Source: an uncultured Pelagibacteraceae bacterium (GTDB lineage: Bacteria > Pseudomonadota > Alphaproteobacteria > Pelagibacterales > AG-422-B15). Taken from it: a DNA stretch of 64,000 nucleotides. The notes beneath the pieces were generated by a model. It was given only the letters and a program-made list of their open reading frames with translations, did no database searches and was not told the DNA's origin. The stretch spans positions 26,065 through 90,064 of the forward strand of contig CACHYW010000001.1 of the NCBI GenBank assembly GCA_902584215.1. The letters are read 5' to 3'. Positions 52,274-57,145 of this stretch are shown here, one piece after another. The stretch's first letter is position 1. Every line of letters begins with the position of its first letter. The position numbers were made by a program, and so were the translations under genes.

Positions 52274-52363
52274 GGAAAGGTGGCCGAGTGGTTGAAGGCG
52301 CACGCTTGGAAAGCGTGTATGCGGGTGACCGTATCGTGGGTTCGAATCCCATCCTTTCCGCCA
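52274..52363 (+). tRNA. tRNA-Ser (anticodon GGA)
   Basis: 90 nt. Acceptor GGAAAGG/CCTTTCC, anticodon stem CACGC/GCGTG with loop TT-GGA-AA, a long variable arm, T arm GTGGG-TTCGAAT-CCCAT, and an encoded CCA. Confidence 0.95.
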
Positions 52364-52791: not shown

Positions 52792-53994
52792 ATGAAATTT
52801 TTTAGACACTCTTCTTCCTTATTAGTGATAGTAGGTGGATGTGTTCTTTTATTAGTATCTTTTGGAATAAGACACTCATCTGGATTATATTTAATTCCTA
52901 TTTCTGACCATATACAAACTGGAAGAGAAGTGTTTGGTTTCGCCATTGCAATTCAATTCCTTATGATTGGGATTGGATCCCCAATCTTTGGAGCCATTGC
53001 AGATAAATATGGTTCATCTATTGCTGGTCTTTATGGAGCAATCTTTTTCTTAATTGGTCTTTATATGATGTCACTTGTAGAAGGATCAGGTCTCCTGATC
53101 GTTTCACAAGTAGTTTTTGGTTTTGGGTGTGCTGGATGTGGAACAGCAGTAATTCTCGGAGCTGTAGGAAAAGCGGTTACAGGAAAATACCAAACGTTGT
53201 CATTAGGTATTGTGATGGCTGCAGGTTCTTTGGGGCAATTCTTAATCGTTCCACTATCAGGATTTATGATCGAAGCAACCGATTGGCAAAAATCAATCGT
53301 CTATCTTTGTTTTATATCCCTAATCATGATTTTATTTGCCTTAACTCTAACAAAATCTTCTTTTAATTCAGGAAAGGATGATCAAGCTGCTCAATCATTA
53401 GCATCTGTACTCAATGAAGCTTTTGTAAATAAAAGCTATGTGTTGTTAACAGTTGGTTTTTTTGTATGTGGCTTTCATGTTTCATTTGTAGCAACACATT
53501 TACCAGCTTATTTGACTGACCTCTCATTACCTTTGTGGATTGGCTCTTGGTCGCTCGCTTTGATTGGTTTATTCAATGTTTTTGGGACATTATTTTTTGG
53601 TCATTTAGGTGATAAAAATTCTAAAAAAAATCTTCTAGTTATTTTATACACACTTCGTGCACTTTTATTCTTAGCATTTATATTTCTTCCTAAAACTGAG
53701 ATAACAGTACTAATTTTTGCTGCATTACTTGGTATTCTGTGGCTCTCAACTGTTCCTCTTACCAGTGGTATTATTTCTGTAATTTTTGGGACCAAATATA
53801 TGTCTATGCTGTATGGCTTTACATTCCTTTCACATCAAGTTGGTTCATTTATGGGCTCATGGTTTGGAGGTCGTTTTTATGATTTTTATGGCTCATACGA
53901 TATCATGTGGTGGGTGTGTGTAGTTCTTGGTTTTGTGTCTGCATTAATGCACTTTCCAATTACTGAAAAACCAATCAAAAGAAAAATTGCTTAA
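52792..53994 (+). CDS. MFS transporter
   Basis: 400 aa with about 12 TM segments and an MFS-type loop motif (GAIADKYGSS). Confidence 0.85.
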   Translation: MKFFRHSSSLLVIVGGCVLLLVSFGIRHSSGLYLIPISDHIQTGREVFGFAIAIQFLMIGIGSPIFGAIADKYGSSIAGLYGAIFFLIGLYMMSLVEGSGLLIVSQVVFGFGCAGCGTAVILGAVGKAVTGKYQTLSLGIVMAAGSLGQFLIVPLSGFMIEATDWQKSIVYLCFISLIMILFALTLTKSSFNSGKDDQAAQSLASVLNEAFVNKSYVLLTVGFFVCGFHVSFVATHLPAYLTDLSLPLWIGSWSLALIGLFNVFGTLFFGHLGDKNSKKNLLVILYTLRALLFLAFIFLPKTEITVLIFAALLGILWLSTVPLTSGIISVIFGTKYMSMLYGFTFLSHQVGSFMGSWFGGRFYDFYGSYDIMWWVCVVLGFVSALMHFPITEKPIKRKIA

Positions 53995-54086
53995 GTATAG
54001 ATTAAATTTATTTATTATTTTATTGATTCTATTACTAAATAAGTTTTCCACTTATCCACAAGTTAAGAAATACAAATAATTTTTTT

Positions 54087-54116
54087 TTGATTTAAAAATT
54101 TTATTAAAAATAATAT
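54087..54116 (+). promoter_or_regulatory. candidate sigma70 promoter for the leader plus LysE-family gene
   Basis: TTGATT (54087-54092), an 18-nt spacer, TAATAT (54111-54116), inside a nearly pure A/T stretch. Confidence 0.3.
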
Positions 54117-54122
54117 TGTCTA

Positions 54123-54236
54123 TTTATCGGAACAACGAAGTTCGAAAGCCTTTCGGGGAGTTTGTTCGGAGTTAGTCCGGAATTTCGGGGCGATATAGAG
54201 ACCTTTCGGGGTATTTGTAGCGCCCCGTTTTTTTTT
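54123..54236 (+). promoter_or_regulatory. structured G/C-rich 5' leader (riboswitch/attenuator-like) of the LysE-family gene
   Basis: Hairpins at 54141-54157 and 54166-54180, plus a terminator hairpin at 54186-54227. TTTCGGGG occurs three times (54151, 54183, 54204). There is no ATG on this strand anywhere in 53995-54271. Confidence 0.45.
54186..54236 (+). terminator. Rho-independent terminator
   Basis: CGGGGCG/CGCCCCG (7 G:C pairs), extended by TATAGA/TTTGTA and ACC/GGT around a 6-nt loop, followed by T9 (54228-54236). Confidence 0.7.
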
Positions 54237-54271
54237 GTGCTTTGTGTCTAAAAATCGGATACAAATTCCAT

Positions 54272-54898
54272 ATGTTTTTAGACTTTACCCTTCTATATTT
54301 TTTTATTCCTTTGTTTTTTGTTATTTCTATAACTCCAGGTCTTTGCATGACTCTTGCTTTAACTATGGGTATTACCATTGGTCTTAAAAATACGATGAAA
54401 ATGATGGTAGGGGAACTTGTGGGTGTCTTAATTGTTGCTGGAAGTGCAGTTATTGGCGGTGGTGCAATTATTTCATCATATCCAATGACATTTCTTTTTT
54501 TTAAATATGGGGGAGGAATTTATTTAATGTTTGTTGGCTATCAAATGTTCAATTCAAGAGGGTCACTGGCATTAAACTTAGATGGAACACATTCCTTTGA
54601 AATTAATTTTTTAAAGCTAGCAAGTCAGGGCTTTATTACTGCAGTTGCAAACCCTAAGGGATGGGCTTTTTTTATTGCTATGGTACCCGCATTTATCAAT
54701 TATGACTTAGCGCTTATGCCTCAGATGTCAGCATTGGTTCTCATCATATTAATAATAGAATTCATATCTTTAATGATTTACGCAACTGGCGGACAGATGC
54801 TTGGTATTATCTTGAAGAAACAAAAAAATATTCAATCAATAAATCGTTTAGCTGGTTTACTAATGGTAGGCGTTGGGATTTGGCTAGCTCTTAGTTAG
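54272..54898 (+). CDS. LysE/RhtB-family amino-acid exporter
   Basis: About 208 aa, six TM segments, LysE-type motifs (ISITPG..., ANPKGWAFF). I prefer ATG 54272, because the track's TTG 54242 begins 5 nt after the terminator T-run (54228-54236). Confidence 0.8.
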   Translation: MFLDFTLLYFFIPLFFVISITPGLCMTLALTMGITIGLKNTMKMMVGELVGVLIVAGSAVIGGGAIISSYPMTFLFFKYGGGIYLMFVGYQMFNSRGSLALNLDGTHSFEINFLKLASQGFITAVANPKGWAFFIAMVPAFINYDLALMPQMSALVLIILIIEFISLMIYATGGQMLGIILKKQKNIQSINRLAGLLMVGVGIWLALS

Positions 54899-55630
54899 AT
54901 TCTGCTTAAAAAGCATCCCAGGTCCTTTTGTTGAGTCATTCCCTGAACCACGAAACATATGCCATATCATTGCCTGGTTTGAAGATATAACAGGTTTACT
55001 CAGTACACGCTCTGCTTCATCTATTATTTTAAATGTTTTCAAATTTGTGCATGAAATAAATACTGCATCACAATCATTTTTTCCAATTTCTAATATTGCA
55101 CGCAAACTATCTCTCTCAGATATTCTTGCCACTACCGTGTCATCTGATTCATTAAATGATTTTTCTTCTGATATGCTAAAATTATCACTCTGAAGATTTT
55201 GTTTGAGTTTCTGAGTTACAGATTGTTCATAGGGTGAAACGAATGCAATATTCTTACATCCAAAGCTATTAAGCGCTTCCTTAACCGCTCTTATGGGATC
55301 TGTTATAAAAGTATTTTTATACTGTTCATTAATTAATTTATTAATTTTTTCAGAACCAATTACTGTTGCACCTGAGGTACATGCATATCCAATGCTGTTA
55401 AAGTCAATTTTTGGAAGCAGGTCCACCGCAATCGGTAAATCATTTTCCATTTTTGCAAGATTTTCATTATTGACAGACTGGTCACACGGAATCCTTGAGT
55501 GATAAATGGCCATATTTTCATCAAGCGTGCTTCTAATTTCTTGCTCAATTGTCTCATCACTTTGCAGTACGATTAATCCAAATCTCATACTGTAATAGTT
55601 TGGATCATCTAGCTCAAAATTTGATACCAT
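54884..55630 (-). CDS. Asp/Glu racemase superfamily protein (maleate isomerase / arylmalonate decarboxylase-like)
   Basis: 248 aa. Two Cys-containing motifs at the expected positions (GYACTSG and FISCTNL). Confidence 0.7.
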   Translation of the reverse strand: MVSNFELDDPNYYSMRFGLIVLQSDETIEQEIRSTLDENMAIYHSRIPCDQSVNNENLAKMENDLPIAVDLLPKIDFNSIGYACTSGATVIGSEKINKLINEQYKNTFITDPIRAVKEALNSFGCKNIAFVSPYEQSVTQKLKQNLQSDNFSISEEKSFNESDDTVVARISERDSLRAILEIGKNDCDAVFISCTNLKTFKIIDEAERVLSKPVISSNQAMIWHMFRGSGNDSTKGPGMLFKQNLTKS

Positions 55631-55635
55631 AAAAC

Positions 55636-57145
55636 TTATCTCGCTGCTTTTAATATTACGCTTCTAGTTTCTGTAGGATCAATTACTGCATCAATCTCAA
55701 GGTGAGCTGCGGCTTCAATTGCTTTTCCTTTTTCGTACAATTGATCGACCAACTTATTAAACAGTTCTTCTTTCTTTTTTCCGTCTTTTATTTCATCAAG
55801 TTCTTTTTTGAATCCAAGCTTGATGGCACCTTCTAATCCCATCGCTCCAAATTCTCCAGTAGGCCATGCAGCTGAGTATACTGGTTGGTGAAAGCTTCCC
55901 CCTGCTAATGCTTGTGCACCCAGTCCGTAACCTTTTCTTAAAAAAATTGTGATTAAAGGTATATTTATTTGCGAACCTATTTTAAAAAGAGCAGACATTC
56001 TTCTAACTGCCCCTTCTTCTTCACTATCGGGTCCAACCATAAAACCAGGGGTATCAACAAAAGAAATGATAGGAAGATTTTGAAGATTGCAAAGCTCAAT
56101 AAAACTTGCAGCTTTATCAGCTGACTCTGAGTCTATTGCCCCCCCCCAAATGTTGGCTATCGCTCGCCATCAATCCAAACGCTTTTCCTTCAATACGTAA
56201 AAGTCCTGTTACGATACTTTTCCCATATATCTGCTTGAGTTCTATAAAAGCATCTTTATCAGAAATGATATTAATAATATTTCTGATTGGATAAGACCAC
56301 TTTCTATTTTTTGGCATAATATCTTTTAATTGAGTCTGATCTTCAACTTTCCAATCAGCTAAATTACCTTGAAAGTAAGAAAGTATTTTCTTTGCTAAAT
56401 CTGTTGCTTCAGCTTCATCTTTTGCTACTAAATCAATAACACCATTTTTTTCATTTACCTCTGATGGACCAATTTCTTTTGGACTATAGGATCCAAGACC
56501 CCCTCCCTCAATCATTGCAGGGCCTGCCATACCGATCCATGAATTTTTAGTAGCTATTCTAATATCTGCACAGCCAAATAGAGCAGCATTTCCAGCAAAG
56601 CAGAAACCATTATTTATGGCAATTCGTAAGCACCTTCCAGTGAGACTTCCCCATAGAGCAAAAGTAGGTACATGCAATCCTGCTATACTTGTATTGATGT
56701 CTGTATCGCCTGGTCTACCACCTCCACCCTCAGTAAATATAACAATAGGTAGTTTGTATTTTTTTGCTTTCTCGCAAATTCGATCAAGCTTCATATGATG
56801 AAAATAACCTTGTGTTCCTGCTAAGACGGAATAATCGTATACAATAGCAACAGCATTAGTTGACTCATTGTCTATTATATTACCATTAATTTTACAGAAA
56901 CCAGTGATAACGCCATCACCAGAAGTTTCCATCAAAAGTTCTTCTTTGTTTTTACGACTTTTTTGAGCCGCCACAGCAAATGCTCCATACTCTAGAAAGC
57001 TATCTTTATCCACTAGATCAGAAAGATTTTCTCTTGCAGTTCTTAAATTTAGTTTATGCCGTTTATTTTTTGCATTCTCTCGAAAATCATCAGTTGTCTT
57101 GTGTAGCCGTTCAATAAATTCAGCAAAGTTTTTTTTGTCTTCCAT
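55636..57145 (-). pseudogene. acyl-CoA carboxylase carboxyltransferase (beta) subunit, interrupted by a frameshift in a G9 run
   Basis: ORFs 56117..57145 and 55636..56040 are the two halves of one carboxyltransferase. Deleting one G from the G9 run (C9 on the + strand, 56139-56147) restores ...SQHLGGAIDSESADKAASFIELCNLQNLPIISFVDTPGFMVGPDSEEEG..., a conserved carboxyltransferase stretch. Confidence 0.8.

What the first reader, a model, noticed from the sequence alone, without database searches (positions are those of the whole stretch)
54087..54271. Riboswitch-like leader with a strong terminator and triple UUUCGGGG repeat upstream of a LysE/RhtB exporter
The 277-nt gap between the MFS gene (stop 53994) and the exporter (ATG 54272) is long for this window.

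Layout:
- The 5' part is almost pure A/T and has a candidate promoter (TTGATT 54087, 18 nt, TAATAT 54111).
- The 3' part (~54128-54227) is conspicuously G/C-rich.

By hand it folds into three hairpins:
- TTCGAAA-gcc-TTTCGGG (54141-54157).
- TCGGA-gttag-TCCGG (54166-54180).
- A long hairpin CGGGGCG-a-TATAGA-g-ACC / tttcgg / GGT-a-TTTGTA-g-CGCCCCG (54186-54227), followed by T9. This terminator ends 35 nt before the start codon.

TTTCGGGG occurs three times (54151, 54183, 54204) and CCTTTCGGGG twice (54149, 54202). The 3' arm of the first hairpin is therefore identical to the terminator apex, which allows alternative pairings with the single GAAAG (54144-54148). CGGA also occurs three times (54128, 54167, 54178).

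No ATG exists on this strand in the whole gap, which argues against leader-peptide attenuation. Terminators are essentially absent elsewhere in the window, so one placed upstream of a gene looks like an expression platform for ligand- or protein-controlled read-through into an exporter. I cannot match the sequence to any riboswitch class I know.
Basis: partly seen in the sequence, partly recalled or inferred. Interest (0 to 1): 0.65.

Follow-up and report, generated by a model that had tools for sequence, protein, structure and literature searches.

The report
SAR11 small RNA gene with DnaA boxes
The G+C-rich hairpins in front of the exporter gene are real and conserved, but they look like a separate, undescribed ~110-base small RNA gene of SAR11 bacteria, with its own promoter, terminator and two upstream DnaA-type boxes, rather than a riboswitch for the exporter.

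Summary
The sequence features are all present as described, and the hairpin plus T9 at 54186-54236 is the strongest terminator-like site in the window.

- **Conservation.** Comparative data show a conserved ~110-nt RNA (window 54126-54235, + strand). It was found in five Pelagibacterales lineages, and helices P1 and P3 show covariation. No Rfam 15 family matches it.
- **Link to LysE.** The link is not conserved. Two lineages and one genome carry the RNA next to a convergent gene. In that genome the LysE orthologue lies 5.4 kb away without the RNA, and several other LysE orthologues also lack it.
- **Terminator.** It is predicted to form with probability ~1 in every lineage. No conserved antiterminator was found.
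- **Promoter.** A TAnnAT -10 element sits at -12..-7 before the invariant 5' AUCGG.
- **Upstream boxes.** An overlapping tandem DnaA box (TTWTCCAC-WTATCCACA, window 54044-54060) lies 63-66 nt upstream in all 32 distinct copies. The same tandem recurs in phage DnaA-box clusters.
- **Repeated motif.** The repeated UUUCGGGG arises because the P2 hairpin and the terminator apex are two copies of one ~20-nt module.

Best reading: a stand-alone small RNA, possibly DnaA-controlled and protein-binding. LysE is a lineage-specific downstream neighbour, reached only by read-through or a weak promoter. The RNA's function is unproven.

The parts
54044..54060 (+). Overlapping tandem DnaA-box-like repeat TTTTCCAC-TTATCCACA. 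The second 9-mer, 54052-54060, is a perfect TTATCCACA. It spans -82 to -66 relative to the predicted RNA 5' end.
   Evidence: This is the only perfect TTATCCACA in the window. It is present in every copy of the element. Its 3' end lies 63-66 nt (mostly 65) from the A of ATCGG in 32 distinct upstream regions, although the spacer sequence has diverged. The same 17-mer gives at least 120 exact hits in viral contigs. 70% of those hits have further DnaA boxes within 150 nt, against 7% of control windows.
54091..54119 (+). Predicted sigma-70-type promoter of the RNA: -35-like TTTAAA (54091-54096), a 17-nt spacer, and -10 TATTGT (54114-54119).
   Evidence: When 15 representatives below 85% identity are anchored on the RNA 5' end, T-12, A-11 and T-7 (TAnnAT) and a TTtAAA-like -35 are conserved. 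The consensus scan also flags TTGATT(54087)-16-AATAAT. This is an in-silico prediction only.
54126..54236 (+). The small RNA, from the predicted +1 (A of AUCGGA) to the end of the T9 tract; about 110 nt.
   Evidence: Covariance model R1 hits 54126-54235 at 119.6 bits, E = 1e-25. The only other hit in the window is a weak reverse-strand echo of the same terminator hairpin, so there is no second copy. Homologues score 96-121 bits in five lineages. There are no hits in 728 kb of control DNA that contains the 14-mer TTCGGGGAGTTTGT.
54128..54179 (+). P1: an irregular long-range helix, 54128-54136 paired with 54171-54179, enclosing P2.
   Evidence: Single-sequence folds of lineages A, C, D and E all give this helix. 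On alignment A4, 5 of its 9 pairs show changes on both sides (A-U/G-C/C-G). Only 66% of cells are paired, lineage B fits poorly, and C/D have a tandem G.A/A.G.
54143..54164 (+). P2 hairpin module CGAAAG-CCU-UUCG-GGG-AG-UUUG: a 4-bp stem, a 2x2 AG/AG internal loop, a 3-bp stem and a UUCG-type tetraloop.
   Evidence: It is invariant apart from U/C at 54151, which pairs with G (U.G to C-G), in the 17 aligned sequences. In L366 the loop UUCG becomes CUUG and the internal-loop G.A becomes U-A. Lineages C and D were found using this sequence as the search pattern, so invariance there is by construction.
54186..54227 (+). P3: the terminator hairpin. Its apex (54199-54213) is a second copy of the P2 module.
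   Evidence: Folding energy is -22.8 kcal/mol. The lower P3 helix (alignment columns 61-70 with 95-104) is 96% paired and four of its pairs covary: C-G/U-A, G-C/U-A/C-G and others. In all five representatives folded (one per lineage), the outermost base pair has probability 0.81-1.0 and the next four pairs 0.995 or higher. The P3 interior aligns to P2 better than 1980-2000 of 2000 shuffles in six representatives.
54228..54236 (+). T9 tract of the intrinsic terminator.
   Evidence: A T-rich tract follows the hairpin in all lineages: T7-T10 in A, B and E; TTTCTATTT in C; TTTCTTTT in D.
54272..54898 (+). LysE/RhtB-family exporter gene (208 aa). It is the downstream neighbour and not an obligatory partner of the RNA.
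   Evidence: Pfam PF01810, E = 2e-20. Its scores against the NCBIfam homoserine/threonine, LeuE and RhtC models are far below their cut-offs. It follows the RNA in lineages A, B and E only.
52792..53994 (+). MFS transporter gene, the usual upstream neighbour of the RNA (lineages A, B, C, E and L366).
   Evidence: Pfam MFS_1. Synteny MFS - (DUF2061-like ORF in B) - boxes - RNA is seen. Three other sets of MFS orthologue loci, found at 73-77% identity, abut the next gene with no RNA: L238-L241, L242-L245 and L368 (R1 search of L238, L242 and L368).

Best explanation
Window 54126-54236 (+) is a stand-alone small RNA gene of Pelagibacterales (SAR11). It is not a leader dedicated to the exporter.

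**Anatomy**
- A sigma-70-type promoter (-35 TTTAAA, -10 TATTGT) is predicted to start transcription at the invariant AUCGG.
- The ~110-nt transcript folds into two irregular hairpins. The first is P1 closing P2. The second is P3, which together with the U-tract forms an efficient intrinsic terminator and defines the RNA's 3' end.
- P2 and the apex of P3 are two copies of one ~20-nt module, (A)AAG-CC-YUUCG-GGG-AR-UUUG.
- An overlapping tandem DnaA box lies at a fixed -82..-66.

**Inferences**
- The initiator DnaA (or a protein with the same specificity) modulates this promoter. This would tie RNA output to replication or initiator status.
- The RNA acts in trans, most plausibly by presenting two identical hairpin modules to a protein partner. 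G-rich base-pairing with C-rich targets is a less likely alternative.
- In the window's lineage, LysE sits 35 nt after the terminator. It is transcribed only by read-through or from a weak near-leaderless promoter, so the RNA gene also acts as a largely constitutive transcriptional barrier in front of LysE.

**Shown**: conservation, structure with covariation, independence from LysE, the fixed box-to-RNA spacing, and the module duplication.

**Inferred**: the transcription start, DnaA binding, action in trans, the protein partner, and LysE read-through.
For: **Conservation and structure**
- The element is conserved in five lineages: A and B, C and D, and E, plus L366 and L367.
- On alignment A4, 87.8% of cells are paired against 36-50% for slid controls. 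The covariation score is 0.221 against 0.09 or less for slid controls. Ten pairs change on both sides, and 0 of 500 shuffles reach the observed values for percentage of cells paired, cells changed on both sides and covariation score (49 of 500 reach the count of ten pairs).
- R1 finds one copy per locus at 96-121 bits and none in control DNA.

**Independence from LysE**
- In lineages C and D the downstream gene is convergent: a 99-aa ORF, an 81-aa ORF or a 346-aa ORF.
- In L102 the upstream gene is divergent, so the RNA there needs its own promoter.
- On contig CACNXQ010000008.1 the RNA follows the MFS gene, while LysE lies about 5.4 kb away without it.

**Promoter and boxes**
- TAnnAT is conserved at -12..-7 across 15 diverged representatives.
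- The box-to-RNA spacing is 63-66 nt in 32 distinct sequences.
- The same overlapping tandem occurs within DnaA-box clusters in viral contigs of 29-69% G+C.

**Terminator and modules**
- The terminator forms with probability ~1, and there is no conserved alternative fold.
- The P2/P3 module similarity is significant in all six representatives tested (five lineages plus L366), and L366 shows a parallel G-to-U change in both modules.
- A UUCG-to-CUUG tetraloop swap occurs in L366.
- No Rfam family matches.
Against: - There is no expression data. The 5' end, the 3' end and even transcription itself are predictions.
- Sequence diversity is modest: five lineages and an effective sequence number of 1.35 in the model.
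- P2 shows no compensatory pairs, and P1 is only 66% paired and poor in lineage B.
- Lineages C and D were retrieved with a P2 pattern, which biases apparent conservation.
- The two boxes overlap by 1 nt, giving an 8-bp period. E. coli DnaA prefers 2-3 bp spacing (PMC11317965).
- Only two boxes are present, with none nearby except one in L102.
- In three lineages LysE does start about 30-45 nt after the terminator with no recognisable separate promoter or Shine-Dalgarno sequence. A cis role there cannot be excluded.
- A different conserved hairpin plus U9 also precedes rhtB in Ca. P. ubique HTCC1062 relatives (PMC2704228). This hints at a recurrent terminator-before-RhtB arrangement.
Confidence: 0.6

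Rival explanations
1. This is a riboswitch or protein-dependent attenuator for the LysE exporter. P1 and P2 form an aptamer. A ligand or factor prevents formation of the P3 terminator and so allows transcription into LysE.
For: In lineages A, B and E the terminator ends about 30-45 nt before the LysE start, with no clear separate promoter or Shine-Dalgarno sequence. The structure is conserved with covariation and has no Rfam match. SAR11 is known to rely on riboswitches (PMC2704228). A different conserved hairpin plus U9 precedes rhtB in other SAR11. Terminator-embedded aptamers exist (HMP-PP riboswitch; title and abstract of PMC6478431, listed).
Against: The RNA is maintained, with compensatory changes, where no co-oriented gene follows: lineages C and D, and L366. 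LysE orthologues at 70-87% identity lack it. There is no conserved antiterminator, and the terminator forms with probability ~1. The terminator apex is itself a conserved module copy.
Confidence: 0.1
2. The element has a dual use. It is a stand-alone small RNA in some lineages. In A, B and E the same promoter also drives LysE through regulated read-through, so LysE would be co-regulated with the RNA promoter, for example through DnaA, without any ligand sensing.
For: The evidence is the same layout as above, together with the conserved promoter and box architecture.
Against: The predicted terminator is very strong: -22.8 kcal/mol followed by T9. The sequences between the terminator and the ATG are unrelated in A, B and E. 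Each carries a chance-level -10-like hexamer close to the ATG, so an independent near-leaderless promoter is also possible.
Confidence: 0.15
3. This is a DNA-level DnaA site: a replication origin or basal unwinding system, or a DnaA-titrating or reactivating locus. The adjacent hairpins would be incidental or serve transcription-assisted unwinding, by analogy with the CcnA gene in the Caulobacter origin.
For: A perfect consensus DnaA box sits in a tandem, followed by a 65-nt stretch of very low G+C, and the spacing is strictly conserved. CcnA shows that an origin can carry a small RNA gene with DnaA boxes (PMC8959179).
Against: There are only two boxes and no further boxes within 150 nt. By inspection of the sequences there is no conserved DnaA-trio array (criteria from PMC8287927). 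There is no GC-skew minimum, and genes converge rather than diverge at about 54.9 kb. The neighbours are thrS, pheST, lepA, an MFS gene and SelO, with no dnaA, hemE, parAB or gid genes among the ORFs annotated between 41.9 and 62.7 kb. The flanking genes differ in lineage D.
Confidence: 0.07
4. This is an ordinary terminator of the upstream MFS or DUF2061 gene, and the hairpins and repeats are chance.
For: The upstream gene is co-oriented in most lineages.
Against: The terminator lies about 190-240 nt past the upstream stop codon, and a conserved promoter-like block lies in between. The upstream gene is divergent in L102. The 5' domain is conserved and covaries. All + strand TTTCGGGG copies in the window are clustered here.
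Confidence: 0.03

Closest known systems
rhtB-associated element of Ca. Pelagibacter ubique (Meyer et al. 2009, BMC Genomics 10:268; PMC2704228, Fig. 3A and Additional file 8)
   Same: Both are SAR11-specific conserved hairpins, often followed by a U6-9 tract, lying just upstream of an rhtB/LysE-type gene. Both are also found in other contexts (proC, livM, livK), and their function is unresolved: the authors suggested either regulation or a conserved terminator. The promoter-like sequence before it (UGCUAUAUU, about 7 nt, then the hairpin) and the GCUCCC after the U-tract resemble lineage B here (my comparison). It may therefore occupy the equivalent locus.
   Different: Its sequence and shape differ. 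It is a single bulged hairpin, GAUAGUCCU...AGCCAUCUUUAGCUCCCGG...AGGACUAUC, of about 55 nt with a C-rich loop. It has no match in the window or in any fetched locus. The element here has two hairpins and is G-rich. The published alignment starts only about 18 nt upstream, so I could not check for DnaA boxes.
CcnA small RNA of Caulobacter crescentus (PMC8959179)
   Same: Both are alphaproteobacterial small RNA genes physically associated with DnaA boxes. In both, a short homopolymeric G/C motif sits in a hairpin: CCCC in the loop of CcnA, and GGGG on the 3' side of the apical hairpins here.
   Different: CcnA is 182 nt long and lies inside the replication origin. It has CtrA boxes and weak DnaA boxes within the gene, and it is not detectably similar in sequence. 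The RNA here is about 110 nt, has a consensus double box at -82..-66, and sits at a locus with no origin features. The resemblance is an analogy only.
Intrinsically terminated trans-acting or protein-sequestering small RNAs with repeated hairpin modules (e.g. CsrB/RsmZ-type sponges; my own knowledge)
   Same: It has its own promoter, a size of about 100 nt, repeated similar hairpin modules and a Rho-independent terminator that forms part of the functional RNA.
   Different: The module here is not an AnGGA loop. GGA counts of 4-5 per RNA are near my own rough estimate of the chance expectation (no tool call). CsrA is, to my knowledge, not typical of Alphaproteobacteria. No partner protein is known.
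Transcription-terminating riboswitches, including terminator-embedded aptamers (HMP-PP/thiS motif; known to me only from the title and abstract of PMC6478431, listed)
   Same: It is a compact structured RNA whose terminator lies directly upstream of a transporter gene in some lineages.
   Different: The gene association is not conserved, there is no conserved antiterminator, and the element persists without a downstream gene.
Double DnaA boxes at DnaA-regulated promoters (E. coli ChIP-seq, PMC11317965) and tandem boxes of the origin basal unwinding system (PMC8287927)
   Same: Two same-orientation 9-mers are present, one of them a perfect TTATCCACA, upstream of a promoter or an A/T-rich stretch.
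   Different: The boxes overlap by 1 nt instead of being 2-3 bp apart. There are no DnaA-trios and no box cluster.

Membership tests
Any Rfam 15 family | Covariance-model score at or near the family's gathering threshold | tested here: not met
   The gathering scan of the window finds only two tRNAs. The E<=10 scan of 53950-54350 gives a best hit of suhB/mmgR at 18 bits against a gathering score of 41, covering only the terminator. No hit at E<=1 in L098, L099 or L110.
Riboswitch / transcription attenuator of LysE | Consistent position in the 5' leader of the regulated gene or a coherent gene set | tested here: not met
   In lineages C and D and in L366 the next gene is convergent. LysE orthologues without the element: L005, L014, L016-L019 and L081-L089.
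Riboswitch / transcription attenuator of LysE | Conserved mutually exclusive terminator and antiterminator pairing | tested here: not met
The outermost terminator pair has probability 0.81-1.0 and the next four pairs 0.995 or higher. The best terminator-free folds are 13-20 kcal/mol weaker and differ in each lineage. This is thermodynamic modelling only.
Riboswitch / transcription attenuator of LysE | Conserved structured domain supported by covariation | tested here: met
   P1 and P3 covary and P2 is invariant. This feature is not specific to riboswitches.
Riboswitch / transcription attenuator of LysE | Specific ligand binding that changes termination | not testable with these tools
   This needs in-line probing or in-vitro transcription.
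Stand-alone bacterial small RNA gene | Own promoter at a fixed position relative to the conserved 5' end | tested here: met
   TAnnAT at -12..-7 and a TTtAAA-like -35 are conserved across 15 representatives below 85% identity. The upstream gene is divergent in L102. In silico only.
Stand-alone bacterial small RNA gene | Intrinsic terminator conserved with compensatory changes | tested here: met
   The lower P3 helix (alignment columns 61-70 with 95-104) is 96% paired, with 4 covarying pairs. A T-rich tail is present in all lineages.
Stand-alone bacterial small RNA gene | Conservation independent of the flanking protein genes | tested here: met
   There are five different downstream neighbours and at least four upstream neighbours.
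Stand-alone bacterial small RNA gene | A discrete transcript is detected | not testable with these tools
   No transcriptome data are available here. The papers searched gave no mapping for this locus.
DnaA box pair | Match to the 9-mer consensus TTATCCACA | tested here: met
   There is one perfect 9-mer and one with 7-8 of 9 matches in every copy.
DnaA box pair | Two boxes 2-3 bp apart, the preferred E. coli DnaA dimer site | tested here: not met
   The boxes overlap by one base, giving an 8-bp period. The criterion comes from PMC11317965.
DnaA box pair | The same arrangement is used where DnaA binding is expected (box clusters) | tested here: met
   TTATCCACWTATCCACA gives at least 120 viral-contig hits. 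Of 104 distinct sites, 70% have at least one further box within 150 nt (mean 1.8), against 7% of control windows (mean 0.08).
DnaA box pair | Binding by the organism's own DnaA | not testable with these tools
   This needs EMSA or ChIP.
Chromosomal origin / basal unwinding system | DnaA-box cluster, DnaA-trios, a GC-skew switch and origin-type neighbours | tested here: not met
   Only two boxes are present. No conserved trio array is seen by inspection (criteria). There is no skew minimum at 54 kb. Genes converge there, and no dnaA, hemE, par or gid genes were found among the ORFs annotated between 41.9 and 62.7 kb.
Meyer 2009 rhtB-associated element | Consensus GAUAGUCCU-(YYUAGCCAUCUUUAGCUCCCGGUUUU)-AGGACUAUC | tested here: not met
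   No match with up to 3 mismatches in the window, and none with up to 2 mismatches in 365 loci.
CcnA | About 182 nt, located in the origin, CtrA box in the promoter, CCCC loop | tested here: not met
   The RNA here is about 110 nt, has G-rich apices and shows no origin features. I did not search for a CtrA box (TTAA-N7-TTAA).

The most novel reading that the evidence does not exclude
SAR11, which has very few transcription factors, may use the replication initiator DnaA to drive or gate a dedicated small RNA. The RNA's two identical hairpin modules would titrate an RNA-binding protein or pair with C-rich mRNAs. This would be a direct link from replication-initiation status to post-transcriptional control in the ocean's most abundant bacteria. 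The overlapping 8-bp-period double DnaA box would then be a distinct, widespread DnaA-binding mode, also used by many phages.
Probability: 0.2. Interest if true: 0.75.

Novelty: new member of a known kind. Interest (0 to 1): 0.5.

Why it matters
SAR11 genomes are extremely streamlined. A ~230-bp non-coding block kept across several lineages is therefore likely to matter. The block comprises the boxes, a spacer of fixed length and a structured RNA.

If expression is confirmed, this would add an unannotated small RNA family to an organism in which few regulators are known. It would also offer a testable case of DnaA acting as a transcription factor for an RNA regulator.

For annotation, the result warns against calling "terminator in front of a transporter" a riboswitch without checking whether the gene association is conserved.

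The phage data also show that overlapping tandem DnaA boxes are a recurrent natural arrangement. This differs from the 2-3-bp spacing rule derived from E. coli.

Tried and rejected
- **Rfam identity.** No family matched. No tRNA or tmRNA lies in the gap.
- **Leader-peptide attenuation.** There is no ATG, and 1-2-nt indels between lineages break all reading frames.
Neither is conserved. The UUUCGGGG at the base of P3 is AUUGCGGGG in lineage E.
- **Identity with the published rhtB element.** It is a different sequence.
- **Replication origin or BUS.** Rejected on box number, trios, skew, gene orientation and neighbours.
- **CsrA-type GGA sponge.** GGA counts of 4-5 are close to my own rough estimate of the chance expectation for this composition (no tool call). 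I did not pursue this.
- **Viral-contig scan with the 14-mer TTCGGGGAGTTTGT.** It gave only chance hits. I reused these as a negative control: no R1 hits.
- **Literature search for SAR11 small RNAs, TSS maps or origin descriptions.** Nothing covered this locus.
- **MFS-anchored look-ups.** Three sets of MFS orthologue loci (found at 73-77% identity) abut the next gene and have no RNA. L237 ends too early to tell.
Full report
**1. Observation**

The MFS gene ends at 53994 and the PF01810 LysE gene starts at 54272.

- The 277-nt gap has no ATG on the + strand.
- TTTCGGGG occurs at 54151, 54183 and 54204. These are the only three + strand copies in the whole 64-kb window.
- CCTTTCGGGG occurs at 54149 and 54202, and CGGA at 54128, 54167, 54178 and 54256.
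- G+C rises from 15-21% to 48% across the gap.
- The hairpin 54186-54227 plus T9 folds at -22.8 kcal/mol. It is the strongest hairpin-plus-T-run site on either strand of the window.
- The simple terminator scan missed it because of its bulges.
- The + strand folds better than the - strand.

**2. Not a known RNA family**

The Rfam 15 gathering scan finds only two tRNAs in the window. A permissive scan of 53950-54350 gives nothing better than an 18-bit partial suhB/mmgR hit on the terminator. Diverged homologues give no hit at E<=1.

**3. Homologues and their context**

I collected related loci by four routes.

*LysE as the anchor (genome scan).* The whole intergenic block is conserved in two Pelagibacteraceae lineages: A (L001-L004) and B (L006-L013, L015). 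It is absent upstream of LysE orthologues at 70-82% identity (L005, L014, L016-L019). It is also absent upstream of metagenomic orthologues at 79-87% identity (L081-L089).

*A metagenome scan with the P2 sequence.* This returned 19 true copies and two chance hits. It revealed two further lineages.
- Lineage C: L097, L098, L101, L104.
- Lineage D: L099, L102, L105, L106, L110.
- In these lineages the RNA is followed by the 3' end of a convergent gene: a conserved 99-aa ORF, an 81-aa ORF or a 346-aa ORF.
- In L102 the upstream gene is divergent.

*MFS homologues as the anchor.* This gave lineage E (L231-L236: MFS - RNA - LysE), another B copy (L367) and L366.

*One genome with both genes.* L366 and L005 are parts of the same contig, CACNXQ010000008.1. 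The RNA sits right after the MFS gene and faces a convergent ORF. The 82%-identical LysE lies about 5.4 kb further on, with no such element in front of it.

The RNA is therefore maintained without LysE, and LysE without the RNA.

**4. Structure**

On a 17-sequence alignment (A4) I tested a three-helix model.
- P1 pairs RNA positions 3-11 with 46-54.
- P2 is a hairpin with a 2x2 AG/AG internal loop and a UUCG loop.
- P3 is the terminator hairpin.

The counts:
- 87.8% of cells are paired, against 36-50% when partners are slid by 1-3 columns.
- The covariation score is 0.221, against 0.09 or less for the slid controls.
- Ten pairs change on both sides.
- 0 of 500 shuffles reach the observed values for percentage of cells paired, cells changed on both sides and covariation score. 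For the count of ten pairs, 49 of 500 shuffles reach it.

The helices differ in how well they are supported.
- P3 is well supported: its lower helix is 96% paired, with four covarying pairs.
- P1 covaries at five of nine pairs but is only 66% paired. It fits lineage B poorly. In C and D it contains a tandem G.A/A.G.
- P2 never varies in A4 except for U.G to C-G. For C and D that invariance is partly by construction.
- In L366, which was found by synteny, the UUCG loop is replaced by CUUG. To my knowledge CUUG is another stable tetraloop type.
- Also in L366, the internal-loop G.A becomes U-A.

Its 3' arm belongs to P1.

A covariance model (R1) scores the window copy at 119.6 bits (54126-54235). 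Other copies score 96-121 bits. It finds no second copy in the window and none in loci lacking the element. It finds nothing in 728 kb of control DNA that contains the 14-mer core.

**5. The repeat explained**

The interior of the P3 hairpin aligns to the P2 hairpin far better than shuffled sequence does in all six representatives. Between 0 and 20 of 2000 shuffles reach the observed score.

The consensus module is (A)AAG-CC-YUUCG-GGG-AR-UUUG. In L366 both modules carry the same G-to-U change. The RNA is thus built from two copies of one hairpin module.

The third UUUCGGGG, at the base of P3, is not invariant. It reads AUUGCGGGG in lineage E.

**6. Promoter and upstream boxes**

I anchored 15 representatives below 85% identity on the invariant AUCGG.
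- TAnnAT lies at -12..-7, with a TTtAAA-like hexamer 17 nt upstream.
- In the window these are TATTGT (54114-54119) and TTTAAA (54091-54096). This predicts a transcription start at A54126.

Further upstream, every copy has TT(A/T)TCCAC-(A/T)TATCCACA (window 54044-54060). This is two DnaA-type 9-mers in the same orientation, overlapping by one base, and one of them is always a perfect TTATCCACA.
- Its 3' end lies 63-66 nt, mostly 65, from the RNA start in all 32 distinct upstream sequences.
- The A/T-rich spacer itself has diverged almost completely between lineages.

The 8-bp period differs from the 2-3-bp gaps preferred by E. coli DnaA (PMC11317965). There it usually sits inside obvious DnaA-box clusters: 70% of sites have further boxes within 150 nt, against 7% of control windows. 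It is therefore a genuine, recurrent DnaA-box arrangement. Binding by SAR11 DnaA remains an inference.

**7. Is it an origin?**

This is unlikely, for five reasons.
- Only two boxes are present.
- No conserved DnaA-trio array follows them (my inspection, against the criteria in PMC8287927).
- There is no GC-skew minimum at the site.
- Genes converge at about 54.9 kb. The neighbours are thrS, pheS, pheT, lepA, tRNA-Ser, the MFS gene, LysE, a eutA-like gene, a carboxyltransferase and SelO.
- The flanking genes differ in lineage D.

**8. Is it a switch?**

In all five representatives folded, the outermost terminator base pair has equilibrium probability 0.81-1.0 and the next four pairs 0.995 or higher. 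The best structures with the 3' arm blocked are 13-20 kcal/mol less stable and are unrelated between lineages. No conserved competitor helix is visible.

This does not exclude factor-dependent antitermination. Together with section 3, though, it leaves the LysE-riboswitch reading with little support.

What remains true is the layout in A, B and E. LysE begins about 30-45 nt after the U-tract, and the intervening sequences are unrelated and lack a clear Shine-Dalgarno sequence. LysE must therefore be transcribed either by read-through or from a weak promoter close to its ATG.

**9. Comparison with known elements**

*Meyer et al. 2009.* They described an "rhtB associated element" in Ca. P. ubique. 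It is a conserved bulged hairpin, followed by U6-9 in about half of its ~1250 representatives. It mostly lies between a hypothetical gene and rhtB, but is also found before proC, livM and livK.
- Its sequence is unrelated to the RNA here and is absent from the window and from all fetched loci.
- The short promoter-like stretch before it and the GCUCCC after its U-tract resemble lineage B. It may be a different RNA occupying the equivalent locus. I could not test this.

*CcnA of Caulobacter.* This is an origin-encoded small RNA with DnaA boxes and a CCCC loop. It is an analogy, not a relative.

**10. Verdict**

The riboswitch interpretation is only partly supported.

The best-supported explanation is an undescribed, lineage-restricted SAR11 small RNA gene. 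It has a fixed-distance double DnaA box, its own promoter and a terminator that is part of the functional RNA.

My confidence differs for each part of this reading:
- Stand-alone conserved RNA gene: about 0.8.
- Control by DnaA: about 0.4.
- Protein binding through the duplicated module: about 0.25.
- Overall statement: 0.6.

All expression-level statements are predictions.

Noticed in passing
window 55636-57145 (- strand): The carboxyl-transferase gene is split into two ORFs of 134 aa and 342 aa, which match Pfam Carboxyl_trans positions 342-474 and 3-308. The orthologue in L006 is one intact 505-aa ORF. This suggests a frameshift, pseudogene or assembly error near 56040-56117.
   Followed up: partly
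It is usually embedded in arrays of further TTATCCACA boxes. This 8-bp-period arrangement differs from the 2-3-bp spacing reported for E. coli.
   Followed up: partly
Literature: PMC2704228, Additional file 11 (not in the window): The published consensus of the SAR11_0636 element ends in UGUGGAUAAYU, a DnaA box on the other strand. It also contains two GAAUC (GANTC) sites. This raises the possibility that the published 'RNA motif' is, or overlaps, a DNA-level DnaA/CcrM site.
   Followed up: no
L006 2514-2738 (and the other lineage B loci): Lineage B has an extra 74-aa ORF between the MFS gene and the DnaA boxes (KRSLVKALTWRVTATADTFLISYLV...). By eye it resembles a DUF2061-type membrane protein. 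Lineages A, C and E lack it.
   Followed up: no
window 52274-52363 (+): tRNA-Ser (anticodon GGA) starts on the base immediately after the lepA stop codon (52273). ARAGORN and Rfam give ends that differ by 3 nt (52363 vs 52360).
   Followed up: partly
L097 2686-2985, L098 922-1221, L101 10380-10679 (- strand in RNA orientation): A conserved 99-aa Cys-rich ORF (…PVVCTKCSDEF…WCRRHELN(I/V)CHFNF…) converges on the RNA terminator in lineage C and overlaps it by a few bases. In lineage D an 81-aa ORF ending in …KEKDTCSCC occupies the same position. The terminator may serve both strands' genes.
   Followed up: no
window 54884-55630 (- strand): The gene overlapping the LysE stop codon region matches the ectoine-utilization EutA model at E = 1e-41, but its score is well below the NCBIfam cut-off (143 vs 318 bits). 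It also matches Pfam Amdase. It keeps its position next to LysE in lineages A, B and E.
   Followed up: no
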